A DNA stretch of 64,000 bases from Escherichia phage EC.P1. Below, piece by piece: positions 23,877 through 29,060 of the stretch (the stretch's first letter is position 1; every line of letters begins with the position of its first letter). Position numbers and translations under genes: made by a program. Under the pieces are notes generated by a model. It did no database searches and was not told where the DNA came from. It was given only the letters and a program-made list of their open reading frames with translations. The stretch lies in the sequence record PQ657772.1; one strand, 5' to 3'.

Positions 23877-24470
23877 TCAGTATTTCAAAATATCAAACTC
23901 TGGACTAACACTTGTTACATTATCACTGACAATTTTGAAAATAGACTCAACACGTTCATGTAACTGAACATTGGTTTCTTCTTGAACTTCAATATACGCT
24001 GACATGGATGCAATTGCATGATACGTCCCGCTTCCGACAGCAGTAATTTGTGTTTTAGGTTGCAGTACTGAAAAGTCTTCTTGAACTTCATAAATCGTAT
24101 GATTATGAAGAATAATGAACTGACCACCACCAACGTCTTGTGATGCATCACGAGCACCCCATTCATCTTTAAACATTTGACGAATGATAGGAATAACTTT
24201 CAGTACTAGATACTGTGAAAAGGTTTCCCCTGCAACTTGTTCTGGTAGAGTTAGGTTGTAATTCAACAACTGTCCCATGCGGAACGAGGTAGTATACCCC
24301 AACGCCATTACTTCTTTAGTGCGAGAAAGACCATCCTCATTGAGTTTAATGAACTCTTTCTCAAATACTTTAGGCTCAGTTTGAACTGCTTTAGTGAAAC
24401 CATTGCTTCCTAATTTATCACCAGCGATGAAGGAAGATGTGCCATTTGTGTGAGCGATAATACAAGTCAT
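23877..24470 (-). CDS. HslV/proteasome-like N-terminal-nucleophile peptidase
   Basis: N-terminus MTCIIAHTNGTSSFIAGD resembles HslV MTTIVSVRRNGHVVIAGD (Thr1 nucleophile); ITAVGSGTYHAIASMSA resembles HslV AIGSGGPYAQAAARA. Start moved from 24539 to ATG 24470 (AAGGAG RBS, ATGA coupling). Confidence 0.5.
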   Translation of the reverse strand: MTCIIAHTNGTSSFIAGDKLGSNGFTKAVQTEPKVFEKEFIKLNEDGLSRTKEVMALGYTTSFRMGQLLNYNLTLPEQVAGETFSQYLVLKVIPIIRQMFKDEWGARDASQDVGGGQFIILHNHTIYEVQEDFSVLQPKTQITAVGSGTYHAIASMSAYIEVQEETNVQLHERVESIFKIVSDNVTSVSPEFDILKY

Positions 24471-24727
24471 GAAATAACTCCTTGTGCAAAAAGGGCCGTA
24501 TACAACCAGTATATCAACAACCCTAGTGTAAGTAAACATGCTCCATAAGAAATTGATAGAACATAGTAAATTCCTGCTTCTAACTTGGATGAAAATTTGT
24601 GTGTACTGGAATCCATAAAACCACGTTTGTAGTCTTTATAGATGAAACATGTTAAAACTAATGTAATGCAATATACAATAGTTGTTGCATAAAAAACAAG
24701 AGATGTTAAGTTTTGTAAATTTGTCAT
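24467..24727 (-). CDS. small membrane protein
   Basis: 86 aa, two TM segments. Confidence 0.45.
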   Translation of the reverse strand: MTNLQNLTSLVFYATTIVYCITLVLTCFIYKDYKRGFMDSSTHKFSSKLEAGIYYVLSISYGACLLTLGLLIYWLYTALFAQGVIS

Positions 24728-24819
24728 AGTTTATACACTCCTAGTGTATGTGAACTTATAACAAAGGATGTACCACTTTATCATCCTCTTATTATAATAT
24801 TATTATTTTGTATCTAATA

Positions 24820-25428
24820 CTAATGAATGATACTACCTAATTCGAGCAACTGATCTGGTGTAAGTCTCACAACTTCATTACCACGAACCTTACTAACCTC
24901 CACTAACAATTCTGGAGGAATACCATTCGCTGCATATAACGCAAATAGAACACCAACCTTAGTTGATAGCTGTTCAGCAAAAATAGTCATTTGGCGAACT
25001 GATATGTATGTGTCATCACTATTTCGTGCTTTACTTTCGATTGACACATTATGTAGACCTAGAATTGAGTCCTTCATCATGTATCTGTTTTCTATATTAG
25101 CACTAAAGAATGCGATAGTGCAAGAAGAATTACAATATCTTTCAACAATAATTGTTAAATTGTTATCATTGACAAAATTTCCTAGTACCACTCCCGCATC
25201 AAAATCACCACCAGGTGACGTAATGATGATAGTGTCAAATGGGTGTGTTTCTCTAAAAACCATCAAACGGTTTACAGTATTTTCAGTTAAAGTTGAAATG
25301 AACTGAACTGTCTGTTTAGATTCATCATATCTAATGATACTTTTTCTTTCAACACCTGCACTTGCAGGAAAGTTAATTAAGAAAATAATAATAATAGATT
25401 GGATGATTTCTTTACATAATCGTACCAC
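24820..25428 (-). CDS. secreted ClpP/S49-like serine-peptidase-fold protein
   Basis: 202 aa; N-terminal signal peptide (..INFPASAG); IITSPGGDFDAG resembles ClpP INSPGG motif. GTG start with AAGAGGG RBS. Confidence 0.45.
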   Translation of the reverse strand: MVRLCKEIIQSIIIIFLINFPASAGVERKSIIRYDESKQTVQFISTLTENTVNRLMVFRETHPFDTIIITSPGGDFDAGVVLGNFVNDNNLTIIVERYCNSSCTIAFFSANIENRYMMKDSILGLHNVSIESKARNSDDTYISVRQMTIFAEQLSTKVGVLFALYAANGIPPELLVEVSKVRGNEVVRLTPDQLLELGSIIH

Positions 25429-25469
25429 TGGTTAACCCTCTTAGTTGATTGTTGATTACATAAATAATA

Positions 25470-25496
25470 TTATAGGAAGATTTAACTTAAGTCAAA
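25470..25496 (-). promoter_or_regulatory. sigma70-like promoter (TTGACT-15-TATAAT)
   Basis: Minus-strand TTGACTtaagttaaatcttccTATAAT upstream of 24820..25428; a second extended -10 (TGaTATAAT) lies at about 25565..25573. Confidence 0.4.
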
Positions 25497-25683
25497 TTGT
25501 TTTTTATATCACTTCACAAATTCCCTCGCAGAATCACCCCGCCTTTTTTACCTTCTTTGGAATGATTATATCACACTAATGTATAATGTCTATGCTTTTG
25601 TCAACAAATAACGTGGTAGTACTGAACTCGTTGTTGGTTCTAAGAGTTTTCCTGAAATTCAAACAAGTTGTGTACTAACAAAA

Positions 25684-25711
25684 GAAAAAGGAGCCTTATG
25701 GCTCCTTTTTC
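25684..25711 (-). terminator. rho-independent terminator (bidirectional palindrome)
   Basis: aaaaaggagcc-ttat-ggctccttttt perfect hairpin with flanking T-runs. Confidence 0.55.
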
Positions 25712-25714
25712 TTT

Positions 25715-26935: not shown

Positions 26936-26936
26936 G

Positions 26937-27461
26937 TTAATCCTCTAAATTCCATTCATCAACCATAGTTGAGCATAATTCCATGTGTCGGAAATATTTC
27001 TCATTAAGTGAATATGGACTCTTATAAAATTGTCGTACATCAGTGAATATATCATAGTTTCTATATATAAATGACATATTTTTATTCATGAATTCTATAA
27101 TCTTCCATAACTTTTCTGTATCGTTTTGTATAGTTTCTGCACTCAATCCCGTCAATTTCATTAGACGCTTGATTTTGAAGCCTGACTCTATTGACGTATT
27201 ATTATGCTTAGTTAAGTAACTATAGCCGATAGAACTCTGTATTAGTTCGATGCTATCAGTACTGGTTATTGTTCCCAGAAATGATTTTAAATTTCTATTC
27301 AACCAATACCATTTTTTGTTCTTGTTATAGCAAGAATACCACTTTTTAACTATAGCTATTGCCTCTGAATTTAAACTTTCGGCAAATTCATCAATTAAAA
27401 ACATGTGATTGAAAAATAAATCACTTTGATCTTCAGATAATTTATATTGCTGCATATCCAC
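26937..27461 (-). CDS. hypothetical protein
   Basis: 174 aa ORF; no motif. Confidence 0.45.
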   Translation of the reverse strand: MDMQQYKLSEDQSDLFFNHMFLIDEFAESLNSEAIAIVKKWYSCYNKNKKWYWLNRNLKSFLGTITSTDSIELIQSSIGYSYLTKHNNTSIESGFKIKRLMKLTGLSAETIQNDTEKLWKIIEFMNKNMSFIYRNYDIFTDVRQFYKSPYSLNEKYFRHMELCSTMVDEWNLED

Positions 27462-27574
27462 CTACCCTATTAACAATTACACCTTGGGTATTTACCTCGT
27501 ATGGATCAATTTTTGATCAATAATTTTTGATATGCAGCAAATAAAATGGGAATCATGAAAGATTCCCTAAGTAA

Positions 27575-28021
27575 TTATTTCTGGAATGGAGTGTACTGGT
27601 ACTGCTCACAATCAGATACAGTTAGTACACCTTCATCATAACCGTACTGGAGAATAAGATCAAATGCTTTATCAACCATAGCTACAACGTCTTTGTAACG
27701 AACGATGGTATGTGCCTGTTTCTCAACTGCTTTCATAATACCCATCAACATCCAGCGACCTTCATCAGTGTGAAGTTTAGCAAAACGAGGACGTTTAGTT
27801 GCTGCCATAATGTCAGTCCATTCTGCTTTAAACACTGATGGACGTTTAGGAATATCATACAGAGTTGTTGGGAATGTTACGTTGTTTTTCTTCATAGCTT
27901 CAGCTTGTGCAGCACGATAACCTTGACGGAATAGTGGGTGCTGTGATTTTAGCTGTTCATTGTTAAAAACTACTTTGTTTTTAAACGCGGCAGAACCTTC
28001 TTTGTATTGTGCATTAGACAT
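27575..28021 (-). CDS. hypothetical protein
   Basis: Track ORF to 28075; ATG at 28021 with GAGGGGAAAG RBS avoids overlap. Confidence 0.45.
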   Translation of the reverse strand: MSNAQYKEGSAAFKNKVVFNNEQLKSQHPLFRQGYRAAQAEAMKKNNVTFPTTLYDIPKRPSVFKAEWTDIMAATKRPRFAKLHTDEGRWMLMGIMKAVEKQAHTIVRYKDVVAMVDKAFDLILQYGYDEGVLTVSDCEQYQYTPFQK

Positions 28022-28022
28022 A

Positions 28023-28352
28023 TTATTCTTTCCCCTCGTCAGTACTGATGAATTTTTTATCTGAGAATGTGCCATGTTCTTGACGCATAGCTTCTGCGTG
28101 TTGAACTGCGTTAATTGGATTAATGTTCTTTTTAATAAGAACTTCTTGCATTAGTTCGAGAACAATAGAAAAACCATTGAGTACTCGCTCTGCCTCGTCA
28201 ACACCTTTCAATTCAATAGCCACTGCACTAATCTGATCTAATGCGGTATTAATAAACTCTGAATCATCTAATACATCATTGACTTCAGTATTATTACGTA
28301 CAAGAACTTTCATATAATCTCCAGAAATAAGATGCCCCAAATGAGGCATCAA
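28023..28352 (-). CDS. hypothetical protein
   Basis: 109 aa ORF; no motif. Confidence 0.4.
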   Translation of the reverse strand: MMPHLGHLISGDYMKVLVRNNTEVNDVLDDSEFINTALDQISAVAIELKGVDEAERVLNGFSIVLELMQEVLIKKNINPINAVQHAEAMRQEHGTFSDKKFISTDEGKE

Positions 28353-28364
28353 ATGAAATTCAAA

Positions 28365-29060
28365 TTAGACCCACTCTTCCACGCCACCGCGACGTTTGAC
28401 GAGATACTTACCTTCTTCGTTGCGTGGACCAAGGATGATACCATCAATGAAACCATGTTCACCGTATTCGAGTGCTTCTTCAGCGTTCAACCACAGGTCA
28501 CGATCCGCATCTTTCAGTAGTTGTTCGTGTGATACACCAACTGCTTCAGCGATTTCTTTAGTCAGTAGTGTGTTCAATGCATCAGAGTGTTTCAAGGAAA
28601 TCTTCTGATCAGTAATCAGACCCTGAGTACCGGAACTTACTTGGTGACACATGAAGTAAGAACGCTTCCCGCCTAGACGGAAACCTTTAGTACCAACTAC
28701 TGATTGTGTATAGCAACCCATTGATGCTGCATAACCCATTACTACTGTACGGATAGGAGATACACAAGACTTAGCAATGTCAGCGATACCTAAACCTGCG
28801 TGTACTGAACCACCAGGAGAACTAATGTAGAAGGTAATTGGTTCAGAACCCTGAGAATCCAACCACACCAATTGTTGCTTGATGATATGTGCCATTTGGT
28901 CATTGAAGTCAGTATCAAGGAAAATGATACGGTCTTGCATCATACGAGATGCTAGATCATAAGTACGTTCTGCACCATTAACTTTTTCAACTACATAAGG
29001 AATAGAAATGTTGCGAACTTCACCACCAGCATAACCACCAAAATTGAATTGTTCAACCAT
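28365..29060 (-). CDS. clpP: ClpP-family serine protease
   Basis: 231 aa; ISSPGGSVHAG, GYAASMG (catalytic Ser), MCHQ (His). Confidence 0.8.
   Translation of the reverse strand: MVEQFNFGGYAGGEVRNISIPYVVEKVNGAERTYDLASRMMQDRIIFLDTDFNDQMAHIIKQQLVWLDSQGSEPITFYISSPGGSVHAGLGIADIAKSCVSPIRTVVMGYAASMGCYTQSVVGTKGFRLGGKRSYFMCHQVSSGTQGLITDQKISLKHSDALNTLLTKEIAEAVGVSHEQLLKDADRDLWLNAEEALEYGEHGFIDGIILGPRNEEGKYLVKRRGGVEEWV

What the first reader, a model, noticed from the sequence alone, without database searches (positions are those of the whole stretch)
23877..29060. Three protease-fold genes: HslV-like Ntn peptidase, secreted ClpP-like paralog and canonical ClpP
Seen in sequence: 23877..24470 begins MTCIIAHTNGTSSFIAGD (Thr directly after the initiator Met, as in HslV/proteasome beta subunits) and carries AVGSGTYHAIASMSA resembling the HslV GSGG loop; 24820..25428 has a signal peptide plus a ClpP-like SPGG motif; 28365..29060 is a canonical ClpP (AASMG, CHQ). 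A phage HslV-like peptidase without an accompanying HslU-like ATPase in the window suggests use of the host unfoldase or autonomous action; an exported ClpP-fold protein is unusual.
Basis: partly seen in the sequence, partly recalled or inferred. Interest (0 to 1): 0.55.

Follow-up and report, generated by a model that had tools for sequence, protein, structure and literature searches.

The report
Three phage peptidase genes, already annotated
The three genes are real and correctly read as a proteasome-like (HslV-type) peptidase, an exported ClpP-fold hydrolase and a true ClpP, but they sit in a known giant coliphage whose public records already name them, so the finding is largely ordinary.

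Summary
The window comes from a Rak2-like (Asteriusvirus) jumbo coliphage, 99.5% identical to phages Ecwhy_1 and fEgEco12. All three ORFs exist at the stated coordinates, on the minus strand.

1. 23877-24470 is a divergent HslV/proteasome-beta-fold peptidase. Thr1, Asp17, Lys33 and the GSG loop are invariant across its family (PHROG 1040, at least 196 phage genomes). No HslU-like ATPase lies near it in 85 loci, and none is found in a whole close-relative genome.

2. 24820-25428 has a ClpP fold with conserved Ser and His, no Asp, and a signal-peptide-like N-terminus. It is not a recent paralog of the phage ClpP. It belongs to a large, mostly extracytoplasmic family (about 1475 representatives) with a C-x-S-x-C motif.

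3. 28365-29060 is a true ClpP with a full Ser-His-Asp triad. Its likely partner is a phage-encoded ClpA-like unfoldase (IGL loop reads IGM) elsewhere in the genome, outside the window. It is not the head-maturation protease, because a T4 gp21-like protease sits next to the capsid gene.

The phage 121Q record already annotates these genes as ClpYQ-like and ClpP-like proteases. None of their functions has been tested experimentally. Interest is low to moderate.

The parts
23877..24470 (-). Orphan HslV/proteasome-beta-fold Thr-nucleophile peptidase, 197 aa (PHROG 1040 'peptidase HslV family')
   Evidence: PHROG E 2.6e-22. M1-T2-C3, D18, K34, G146 and G148 are invariant in 32 homologues. The family profile matches PDB HslV at E 6e-8, with Thr1/Asp17/Lys33 in register. 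AF2 pLDDT 92.8; the Foldseek top hits are HslV, and BPH matches at TM 0.70-0.74. The start is supported by an RBS and the ATGA overlap.
24467..24727 (-). 86-aa protein with two predicted membrane helices. It is translationally coupled (ATGA overlap) to the HslV-like gene. No functional link is shown.
   Evidence: ORF and overlap. Two hydrophobic 19-residue windows. Conserved at this position in 121Q. Small membrane-protein neighbours are not enriched across 85 HslV-like loci.
24820..25428 (-). Exported ClpP-fold Ser/His hydrolase, 202 aa, GTG start. It has a signal-peptide-like N-terminus (...FPASA|G) and a C99-N-S101-S-C103 motif.
   Evidence: Pfam CLP_protease scores 17.9 bits, below the 20.2 cut-off. 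PHROG 26024 'protease' E 7.7e-70. AF2 pLDDT 92.5; the Foldseek best hits are ClpP at E 9e-9, TM 0.65. S71, G73, G74, C99, S101, C103 and H126 are invariant in 30 diverse relatives. Of 159 representatives, 157 have CxSxC and 146 have a hydrophobic N-terminus.
25565..25592 (-). Sigma-70-like promoter match (TAGACA, 16 nt, TG-TATAAT) upstream of the exported ClpP-fold gene
   Evidence: Scores 11 of 12 with an extended -10. Sequence read. Consensus match only; activity not shown.
25685..25710 (-). Hairpin plus T-run (AAAAAGGAGCC-ATAA-GGCTCCTTTTT) after the preceding 88-aa gene. It separates that gene from the protease transcription unit.
   Evidence: Read directly in the sequence. The terminator scan did not list it.
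28365..29060 (-). True ClpP (S14) proteolytic subunit, 231 aa, catalytic triad Ser113/His139/Asp188
   Evidence: Pfam E 1.3e-41. Solved ClpPs match at E 3e-36, aligned from the N-terminal axial region. 38% identical to E. coli ClpP. Triad and docking-pocket mapping.
29095..29122 (-). Sigma-70-like promoter match (TAGACA, 16 nt, TG-TATAAT) upstream of ClpP, the same consensus as at 25565-25592
28331..28350 (-). Terminator-like hairpin immediately after the ClpP stop codon, suggesting ClpP is transcribed alone
   Evidence: 8-bp stem, 5 GC pairs, T-rich tail.

Best explanation
This stretch of a Rak2-like jumbo coliphage carries three separate peptidase genes, set among early/middle nucleotide-metabolism genes. 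They are not a single system.

(1) The 231-aa protein is a genuine ClpP. It probably forms the usual barrel and is fed by the phage's own ClpA-like unfoldase, encoded about 85-90 kb away and outside the window. Together they would give the phage a private cytoplasmic ClpAP protease for degrading host or phage proteins. It is not the head-maturation protease.

(2) The 197-aa protein is a proteasome-beta/HslV-fold peptidase. Host methionine aminopeptidase would expose Thr1 as the nucleophile, acting with Asp17 and Lys33. It belongs to a phage-wide family that never has an HslU-like gene nearby. Its counterparts of the HslU-tail pocket residues are changed. I therefore think it most likely works as a self-contained peptidase ring, or with an unidentified partner, rather than as a plug-in for host HslU.

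(3) The 202-aa protein is a ClpP-fold serine hydrolase using a Ser/His pair. It is exported by a Sec-type signal peptide and acts without ATP in the periplasm. Its substrate is unknown, and a role in modifying the host envelope is speculation.

Shown here: folds, catalytic residues, gene starts, family distributions, and the presence of the ClpA-like and gp21-like genes in close relatives. Inferred: oligomeric states, partnerships, export, timing of expression and substrates.
For: Identity of the phage: 99.5% identity to Ecwhy_1 and fEgEco12 over 7 kb.

ClpP:
- Pfam E 1.3e-41.
- Aligns with solved ClpPs from the N-terminal axial loop onward.
- Triad S113/H139/D188. Of 16 ADEP/IGF-pocket residues (list from bioRxiv 10.1101/2023.03.01.530711), 12 are identical or conservative.
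- It scores 153-156 bits on cellular ClpP models but only 51 bits on 'head maturation protease, ClpP-related' (cut-off 120).

Partner for ClpP:
- The only Hsp100/AAA+ hit in the complete genome of TH47 (97.8% relative) is a 762-aa ClpA-like protein.
- It has two AAA+ modules.
- It is 43% identical to E. coli ClpA, and SIGM aligns to SIGL of the docking loop.
- It is present at 99% identity in fEgEco12 and Ecwhy_1 and throughout the Rak2-like phages (also noted in PMC6102473).

Not the head protease:
- A T4 gp21 homologue (E 4.6e-15) lies 1.5 kb from the gp23-like capsid gene in TH47.
- phAPEC6 virion mass spectrometry detected the gp21-like gp227c. It did not detect gp353c (ClpP), gp346c or gp345c.

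HslV-like: as listed under parts.
- 196 phage records carry it, including T5-like phages.
- There are 0 AAA+ hits within 6 kb in 85 loci.
- TH47 has no HslU or ClpX homologue.
- Phe54/Phe57 align to invariant Arg64/Gln67 (PMC6429459).

Exported protein. The hydrophobic N-terminus and the A-S-A motif are invariant in its orthologues.
Against: - No experiment supports any of the activities.
- The ClpA-like gene is outside the window and was seen only in relatives.
- Four pocket residues of the phage ClpP are non-conservatively changed (V44K, Y60T, F82S, L114G), so docking with any particular unfoldase is unproven.
- The HslU-pocket argument rests on a sequence alignment at about 21% identity.
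- All listed hosts of phages with HslV-like genes belong to groups that have HslU (my own knowledge), so host HslU use is not excluded.
- No signal-peptide predictor was available. The N-terminus could be an uncleaved membrane anchor.
- Promoter and terminator calls are consensus matches only, and the number of promoter-like sites in the region is not above the shuffled expectation.
Confidence: 0.65

Rival explanations
1. The HslV-like protein docks onto host HslU, forming a hybrid ATP-dependent protease or titrating HslU away from host HslV.
For: No HslU homologue in the window, or in the whole genome of the close relative TH47. No AAA+ gene within 6 kb in 85 HslV-like loci. HslV is the nearest solved relative by sequence and by fold. 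Cellular HslV alone is only weakly active and needs HslU tails (PMC6429459).
Against: Identity to E. coli HslV is only about 21%. It scores 18-19 bits on HslV equivalog models whose cut-offs are 137-158. Tail-pocket residues Phe54/Phe57 align to family-invariant Arg/Gln. TM-scores are higher to BPH, a partner-less homologue, than to HslV.
Confidence: 0.25
2. The 231-aa ClpP, and/or the 202-aa protein, is the phage head-maturation (prohead) protease, as several GenBank records label them.
For: The best PHROG hit for the 231-aa protein is phrog_94 'head maturation protease', E 9.5e-44. Records such as fEgEco12, WPEC5, vB_Ec-M-J and RefSeq 121Q use that product name.
Against: A T4 gp21-type protease sits beside the capsid gene about 230 kb away in TH47 and is present in phAPEC6 virions. 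The NCBIfam head-maturation model scores 51 bits against a cut-off of 120, whereas cellular ClpP models score 153-156 bits. The gene lies between DNA ligase and dCMP deaminase, not in a head module. The 202-aa protein has an export signal, which is incompatible with prohead assembly in the cytoplasm.
Confidence: 0.04
3. The phage ClpP works with host ClpX or ClpA, or forms mixed rings with host ClpP, to redirect host proteolysis. The phage ClpA-like protein would then act separately as a chaperone.
For: The N-terminal axial region and 12 of 16 docking-pocket residues are identical or conservative relative to E. coli ClpP. ClpP and the ClpA-like gene are not adjacent, being about 87 kb apart in fEgEco12. 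Iyer et al. propose that jumbo-phage ClpP is deployed against the host (PMC7824862).
Against: The phage ClpA-like protein keeps the ClpP-docking tripeptide (IGM) that ClpB-type chaperones lack (the ClpB point is my own knowledge). ClpA-like genes co-occur with ClpP across the Rak2-like phages. Four pocket residues are non-conservatively changed.
Confidence: 0.2
4. The 202-aa protein is catalytically inactive, or is a non-protease ClpP/crotonase-fold protein anchored in the inner membrane.
For: It is below the Pfam gathering score. The catalytic Asp of ClpP has no counterpart. No close solved structure exists. Cleavage of the N-terminal hydrophobic segment is untested.
Against: The Ser in C-x-S-x-C, the His, and the S-x-G-G oxyanion motif are invariant in 30 diverse relatives and present in 157 of 159 representatives. 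That argues for a conserved active site. The A-x-A motif after the hydrophobic core is invariant in orthologues.
Confidence: 0.15

Closest known systems
HslV (ClpQ), peptidase family T1B, the proteolytic core of bacterial HslVU
   Same: Thr nucleophile directly after the initiator Met. Asp17 and Lys33 are at the same positions. It has a GSG loop, the Ntn alpha-beta-beta-alpha fold and a similar size.
   Different: About 21% identity, with no Pfam hit and NCBIfam scores far below cut-off. No hslU is adjacent or in the genome. An invariant Cys follows the Thr. HslU-tail pocket residues Phe54/Phe57 are replaced by Arg/Gln. This lineage has an insertion at residues 38-55.
BPH (betaproteobacterial proteasome homologue) and Anbu, T1-family rings without a known ATPase partner
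   Same: Stand-alone proteasome-beta-like gene with no partner ATPase. The highest TM-scores of the model are to BPH 5ovs (0.70-0.74).
   Different: Sequence similarity to BPH is weaker (profile E 3e-3) than to HslV (6e-8). The phage family is found in phages, not in betaproteobacterial chromosomes.
Bacterial ClpAP protease (ClpP, family S14, with the ClpA Hsp100 unfoldase)
   Same: The 231-aa protein has the Ser-His-Asp triad, the N-terminal axial region and most docking-pocket residues. The phage genome also encodes a two-ring ClpA-like ATPase with an IGL-type loop.
   Different: It is phage-encoded. ClpP is 38% identical to the host's and ClpA 43%. No ClpS homologue was found. ClpP has an 18-residue N-terminal and a roughly 20-residue C-terminal extension. 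Four pocket residues are changed. The two genes are far apart in the genome.
Extracytoplasmic clan-SK peptidases: SppA (S49) and NfeD/STOPP (1510-N)
   Same: The 202-aa protein combines a ClpP fold with a location outside the cytoplasm and no ATPase. Its family profile weakly hits the NfeD protease 1510-N (E 1.7e-3).
   Different: It has a conserved Ser/His pair flanked by two invariant Cys (C-x-S-x-C) rather than the Ser-Lys dyad of SppA/NfeD. It is a single small domain of about 175 residues after the signal peptide. The dyad statement is from my own knowledge.
ClpP-related phage head-maturation proteases (NCBIfam NF045542, PHROG 94)
   Same: Same fold and clan. PHROG 94 is the top PHROG hit for the 231-aa protein.
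   Different: It scores below the NCBIfam cut-off, is not in a head module, and the phage has a T4 gp21-type prohead protease next to its capsid gene.

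Membership tests
HslV / peptidase T1B | N-terminal Thr nucleophile exposed directly after the initiator Met | tested here: met
   M1-T2 is invariant in 32 homologues. RBS and ATGA overlap fix the start. About 70 of 86 ORFs in 85 loci begin with, or contain near the start, MTC[IV].
HslV / peptidase T1B | Asp17 and Lys33 catalytic partners and the G-S-G loop | tested here: met
   D18, K34, G146 and G148 (numbering includes Met) are invariant. The HMM alignment to E. coli HslV puts them in register.
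HslV / peptidase T1B | Ntn-hydrolase (proteasome beta) fold | tested here: met
   AF2 pLDDT 92.8. Foldseek finds HslV at E 2e-10, probability 1.00, and 832 PDB matches at E<=1e-3, all of the 50 listed being HslV, BPH or proteasome beta chains.
HslV / peptidase T1B | Score above curated family thresholds (Pfam Proteasome; NCBIfam TIGR03692 / PRK05456) | tested here: not met
   No Pfam hit at E<=1. NCBIfam scores are 18.9 and 18.1 bits against cut-offs of 137 and 157.75.
HslV / peptidase T1B | Partner HslU ATPase encoded alongside | tested here: not met
   None in the window. No HslU homologue in the complete TH47 genome. There are 0 AAA+ hits in 85 family loci.
HslV / peptidase T1B | Hydrophobic pocket for the HslU C-terminal tail (Phe54, Phe57 in E. 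coli HslV; PMC6429459) | tested here: not met
   These align to Arg64 and Gln67 of the family-invariant TTSFRMGQ motif. The alignment is at about 21% identity, so this is suggestive only.
HslV / peptidase T1B | Double hexameric ring assembly | not testable with these tools
   Only single-chain prediction was available.
ClpP (S14), for the 231-aa protein | Pfam CLP_protease above gathering score, with the Ser-His-Asp triad | tested here: met
   142.9 bits against 20.2. S113/H139/D188 align to E. coli S97/H122/D171.
ClpP (S14), for the 231-aa protein | N-terminal axial-loop region and docking pocket for IGF/IGL loops | tested here: inconclusive
   The N-terminal region aligns from residue 19-20. 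The pocket has 5 identical, 7 conservative and 4 non-conservative residues.
ClpP (S14), for the 231-aa protein | AAA+ partner carrying an IGF/IGL loop | tested here: met
   A ClpA-like protein with an IGM loop is found in TH47, fEgEco12 and Ecwhy_1, outside this window.
ClpP (S14), for the 231-aa protein | NCBIfam ClpP equivalog cut-off | tested here: not met
   153.3 bits against 308.6 (TIGR00493) and 156.4 against 249. It is a divergent ClpP.
ClpP (S14), for the 202-aa protein | Pfam gathering score, Ser-His-Asp triad and N-terminal axial loop | tested here: not met
   17.9 bits, below 20.2. Ser and His are conserved, but no Asp is. The N-terminus is a hydrophobic export signal instead. The fold itself is ClpP-like.
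ClpP-related head-maturation protease (NF045542 / PHROG 94) | Family score above cut-off, and a position in the head module beside the portal, scaffold or capsid genes | tested here: not met
   51.1 bits against 120. The neighbours are DNA ligase, a phosphoesterase and dCMP deaminase. The gp21-like protease lies next to the gp23-like capsid gene elsewhere in the genome.
SppA (S49) / NfeD, for the 202-aa protein | Ser-Lys catalytic dyad | tested here: not met
   The invariant residues are S71, G73, G74, C99, S101, C103 and H126. No Lys is invariant. There is only a weak profile hit to NfeD 1510-N (E 1.7e-3).

The most novel reading that the evidence does not exclude
The phage HslV-like family (PHROG 1040) is a free-standing, virus-specific proteasome-like particle. 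It would be gated by something other than HslU, such as a phage factor binding the invariant TTSFRMGQ surface, and used to destroy selected host proteins such as defence factors. In parallel, the C-x-S-x-C exported ClpP-fold family would be an uncharacterised periplasmic peptidase class that the phage uses to remodel the host envelope.
Probability: 0.15. Interest if true: 0.55.

Novelty: already known. Interest (0 to 1): 0.27.

Why it matters
This changes little as a discovery. The same genes are already deposited and named in at least eight near-identical phage genomes. ClpP and ClpA genes in Rak2-like phages and HslV genes without HslU in another jumbo phage have been remarked on in print (PMC6102473, PMC7824862, PMC7823757).

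Three practical points come out of the check:
- The widespread product name 'head maturation protease' for these ClpP-fold genes is very probably a label-transfer error.
- The phage appears to carry a complete private ClpAP system.
- Two sizeable families have conserved active sites but no biochemical characterisation and no curated Pfam or NCBIfam model that captures them. These are the orphan phage HslV-like peptidases and the exported C-x-S-x-C ClpP-fold proteins.

If someone wanted to study how large phages reshape the host proteome, these are reasonable candidates to test.

Tried and rejected
1. Conserved two-gene module of a ClpP-fold gene plus an HslV-like gene. Two distant contigs (L005, L007) have a cytoplasmic ClpP-fold ORF directly upstream of the HslV-like gene. 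However, an iterated HMM search found ClpP-fold ORFs in only 5 of 85 loci, and T5-like phages lack it. Rejected as a general rule.

2. Association of the HslV-like gene with small membrane proteins, as in the window. It occurs in 14 of 85 loci against a 6.8% per-gene background. Rejected.

3. Single-sequence searches against the PDB. The HslV-like protein gave only E 0.16 and the 202-aa protein gave nothing. Family profiles and predicted structures were needed.

4. The profile of the exported family (A3) found no relatives near HslV-like genes outside the 121Q locus.

5. Context look-ups of two distant relatives of the exported protein returned contigs too short to be informative.

6. The afdb50 fold library was unavailable, so UniProt names for the exported family could not be obtained.

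7. Literature searches for HslV Lys28 found nothing usable. Pocket residues were taken from PMC6429459 instead.

8. The fEgEco12 genome paper does not mention proteases.

Full report
**What the window is.** A 7-kb stretch around the finding is 99.5% identical to Escherichia phages Ecwhy_1 and fEgEco12, and about 79-80% identical to 121Q, PBECO4-like phages and phAPEC6. These are Rak2-like jumbo myoviruses of the genus Asteriusvirus, with genomes of 350-385 kb. GC content is about 35%, and almost every gene in this part of the window is on the minus strand.

**Checking the observation.** The three ORFs are present exactly as described, all on the minus strand.

- For the first ORF a longer reading frame exists (to 24539). 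The start at 24470, which gives MTCIIAH..., is well supported. AGGAG lies 8 nt upstream, and the ATG overlaps the TGA of the preceding 86-aa gene. Every one of 32 aligned homologues starts with MTC.
- The second ORF starts with GTG after GAGGG.
- The 121Q record already annotates the orthologues as 'peptidase HslV family / protease (ClpYQ-like)', 'protease (ClpP-like)' and 'head maturation protease / protease (ClpP-like)'. fEgEco12 calls them 'protease', 'head maturation protease' and 'protease'.

**The HslV-like protein (23877-24470).** The evidence for an HslV-type Thr peptidase is consistent across methods.

- Pfam gives no hit, and the NCBIfam HslV models score only 18-19 bits against cut-offs of 137-158. 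PHROG 1040 'peptidase HslV family' matches at E 2.6e-22.
- A database search found 72 clusters, none with a Pfam domain.
- In an alignment of 32 of them, the invariant residues are M1, T2, C3, D18, K34, Q67, G146, G148 and V188. Counting from the mature Thr1, these include Thr1, Asp17, Lys33 and the GSG loop of HslV and proteasome beta subunits.
- The family profile hits solved HslV chains at E 6e-8, with MT-I...GD...K in register.
- The AlphaFold model is confident (pLDDT 92.8). Its best solved matches are HslV (E 2e-10). The highest TM-scores (0.70-0.74) are to BPH, a partner-less proteasome homologue.

So it is a proteasome-type Thr peptidase by fold and catalytic residues. It fails the curated HslV family tests.

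**Distribution and partner of the HslV-like family.** tblastn finds the family in 196 phage records. These include T5-like Epseptimavirus, and Aeromonas, Vibrio, Xanthomonas and Moorella phages, several of which RefSeq labels 'peptidase HslV family'. BFVD holds 35 viral clusters with this fold.

I collected 80 IMG/VR loci plus five others and searched all ORFs within 6 kb. There was no hit to HslU, ClpX, Lon or ClpA at E<=0.01. ClpP-fold ORFs occurred in only 5 of the 85 loci.

The complete genome of TH47 (97.8% relative, fetched) has no HslU or ClpX homologue. Phage-encoded HslU does exist in other jumbo phages such as Ea35-70. An HslV without HslU was noted for phage pSal-SNUABM-04 (PMC7823757).

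Phe54 and Phe57, which accommodate the HslU tail in E. coli HslV (PMC6429459), align to Arg64 and Gln67 of the family-invariant TTSFRMGQ motif. This alignment is at low identity, so I treat it as a pointer only. It tips me towards an autonomous or differently partnered peptidase rather than a host-HslU plug-in.

**The exported ClpP-fold protein (24820-25428).**

- Pfam CLP_protease scores 17.9 bits, just under the 20.2 cut-off. No solved relative is found by sequence.
- Close homologues are confined to Rak2-like phages: 10 clusters and 47 phage records.
- A full HMMER scan with the family profile found 1475 representatives at E<=1e-3.
- In 30 diverse members, the invariant residues are S71, G73, G74, C99, S101, C103 and H126.
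- Among 159 representatives, 157 have C-x-S-x-C and S-x-G-G. 146 have a hydrophobic N-terminal segment, and 22 have a lipobox-like motif.
- The model is confident (pLDDT 92.5) and matches ClpP (E 9e-9, TM 0.65), including the long handle helix.
- Ser101 and His126 align with the ClpP nucleophile and His, but nothing replaces the Asp.
- The N-terminus has a charged start, 13 hydrophobic residues, then P-A-S-A|G. That motif is invariant in the nine aligned orthologues. It looks like a Sec signal peptide, but no predictor was available.
- It is not a recent duplicate of the phage ClpP (pairwise E 0.02).

I conclude that it is a member of a large, essentially uncharacterised extracytoplasmic branch of the ClpP clan. 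The two Cys around the nucleophile may form a disulfide in the periplasm, but that is inference.

**The true ClpP (28365-29060).** Pfam gives E 1.3e-41. Solved ClpPs match at E 3e-36, with the alignment starting in the N-terminal axial region. It is 38% identical to E. coli ClpP, with triad S113/H139/D188.

I mapped the 16 residues of the ADEP/IGF site (list from bioRxiv 10.1101/2023.03.01.530711). Five are identical, seven are conservative and four are non-conservative (V44K, Y60T, F82S, L114G).

**The ClpA-like partner.** Searching TH47 with E. coli ClpX, Lon and HslU gave one shared locus. It encodes a 762-aa protein with AAA, AAA_lid_9, AAA_2 and ClpB_D2-small domains. It is 43% identical to E. 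coli ClpA, and KRSIGMSGSD aligns to RKSIGLIHQD, the ClpP-docking loop. No ClpS homologue was found.

The gene is 99% identical in fEgEco12 (168077-170362) and Ecwhy_1 ('ClpA-like protein'). It occurs throughout the Rak2-like phages, including K64-1, GAP32 and the PA5oct relatives. Attai et al. already noted that ClpA is conserved in Rak2-like phages (PMC6102473). Iyer et al. suggested that jumbo-phage ClpP is aimed at the host (PMC7824862).

The most economical reading is a phage-encoded ClpAP protease.

**ClpP is not the head protease.** PHROG 94 ('head maturation protease') is the top PHROG hit for the 231-aa protein, and many records copy that name. Four observations argue against it:

- The NCBIfam head-maturation model scores 51 bits against a cut-off of 120, while cellular ClpP models score 153-156 bits.
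- TH47 has a T4 gp21 homologue (E 4.6e-15) 1.5 kb from its gp23-like capsid gene, about 230 kb from ClpP.
- In phAPEC6 the gp21-like 'prohead core scaffold and protease' gp227c lies beside the scaffold, major head and portal proteins and was detected in virions.
- The orthologues of the three genes studied here (gp345c, gp346c, gp353c) are absent from the 62-protein phAPEC6 virion list. Their neighbours gp341c (PhoH-like) and gp347 are present.

**Local organisation.** ClpP has a promoter-like site (TAGACA, 16 nt, TG-TATAAT) at 29122-29095 and a terminator-like hairpin at 28350-28331. An identical promoter consensus lies at 25592-25565, ahead of the exported ClpP-fold gene. That gene is followed by the 86-aa membrane protein and the HslV-like gene, with no intervening terminator match.

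These are consensus matches only. The total count of promoter-like sites in the region is not above the shuffled expectation. The surrounding genes are DNA ligase, a phosphoesterase, dCMP deaminase, Sir2-like, Nudix and PhoH-like. A similar PhoH / HslV-like / dCMP deaminase / ligase neighbourhood recurs in distant phage contigs.

**Verdict.** The interpretation needs correcting on the partner question, because the genome encodes a ClpA-like unfoldase. It also needs correcting on the 'paralog' and 'unusual' claims. The genes and their protease-family labels are already in public records, so the finding is already known. What remains open is the biochemical function of the orphan HslV-like family and of the exported C-x-S-x-C family.

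Noticed in passing
window 25565-25592 and 29095-29122 (minus strand); also 52990-53000: Both protease transcription units are preceded by the same promoter-like consensus, TAGACA-16 nt-TG-TATAAT. The exact 11-mer TGTGATATAAT occurs three times in the window. With one mismatch allowed there are 13 matches against 6 expected. This may be a shared phage promoter class read by host sigma-70.
   Followed up: partly
window 20214-21653 (minus strand): The PhoH-like protein is 479 aa, roughly 220 residues longer than the 245-261-aa PhoH genes seen in other phage loci, so it has an extra N-terminal domain. Its phAPEC6 orthologue gp341c was detected in purified virions by mass spectrometry.
   Followed up: no
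L005 7107-7757 and L007 7103-7933: In two distant phage contigs a cytoplasmic ClpP-fold ORF lies directly between PhoH and the HslV-like gene. It has the motifs NSDGG/NSGGG, RCAST/DCGSMC and IHQ/SHT and no signal peptide. The pairing is not general (5 of 85 loci).
   Followed up: yes
L007 8861-9448: A gene with the Pfam Gad2 domain (anti-Gabija) lies two genes downstream of an HslV-like gene in a metagenomic phage contig.
   Followed up: no
L024 3501-4954 (Aeromonas phage 2L372D gp210-gp211): There are two adjacent genes both labelled 'peptidase HslV family', one of 183 aa and one of 294 aa. This hints that some phages might build a two-subunit ring.
   Followed up: no
TH47 289538-291823 (outside the window; fEgEco12 168077-170362): A phage-encoded ClpA-like Hsp100 with an IGM docking loop. 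Record annotations range from 'ClpA-like protein' to 'putative virion protein and lysozyme murein' and 'hypothetical protein', so naming is inconsistent across records.
   Followed up: yes
window 25429-25714 compared with L002 5582-6087 (121Q): 121Q carries two extra plus-strand genes, including an Ig-domain virion protein, between the ClpP-like gene and the 88-aa gene that precedes dCMP deaminase. This window has only a 286-bp intergenic region with promoter-like sites at the same place.
   Followed up: no
window about 54000-64000 (fEgEco12 g131-g153, record 45188-56778): A long run of same-strand hypothetical genes of similar size (roughly 350-600 bp each). This may be a tandem paralogue array. 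I did not examine it.
   Followed up: no
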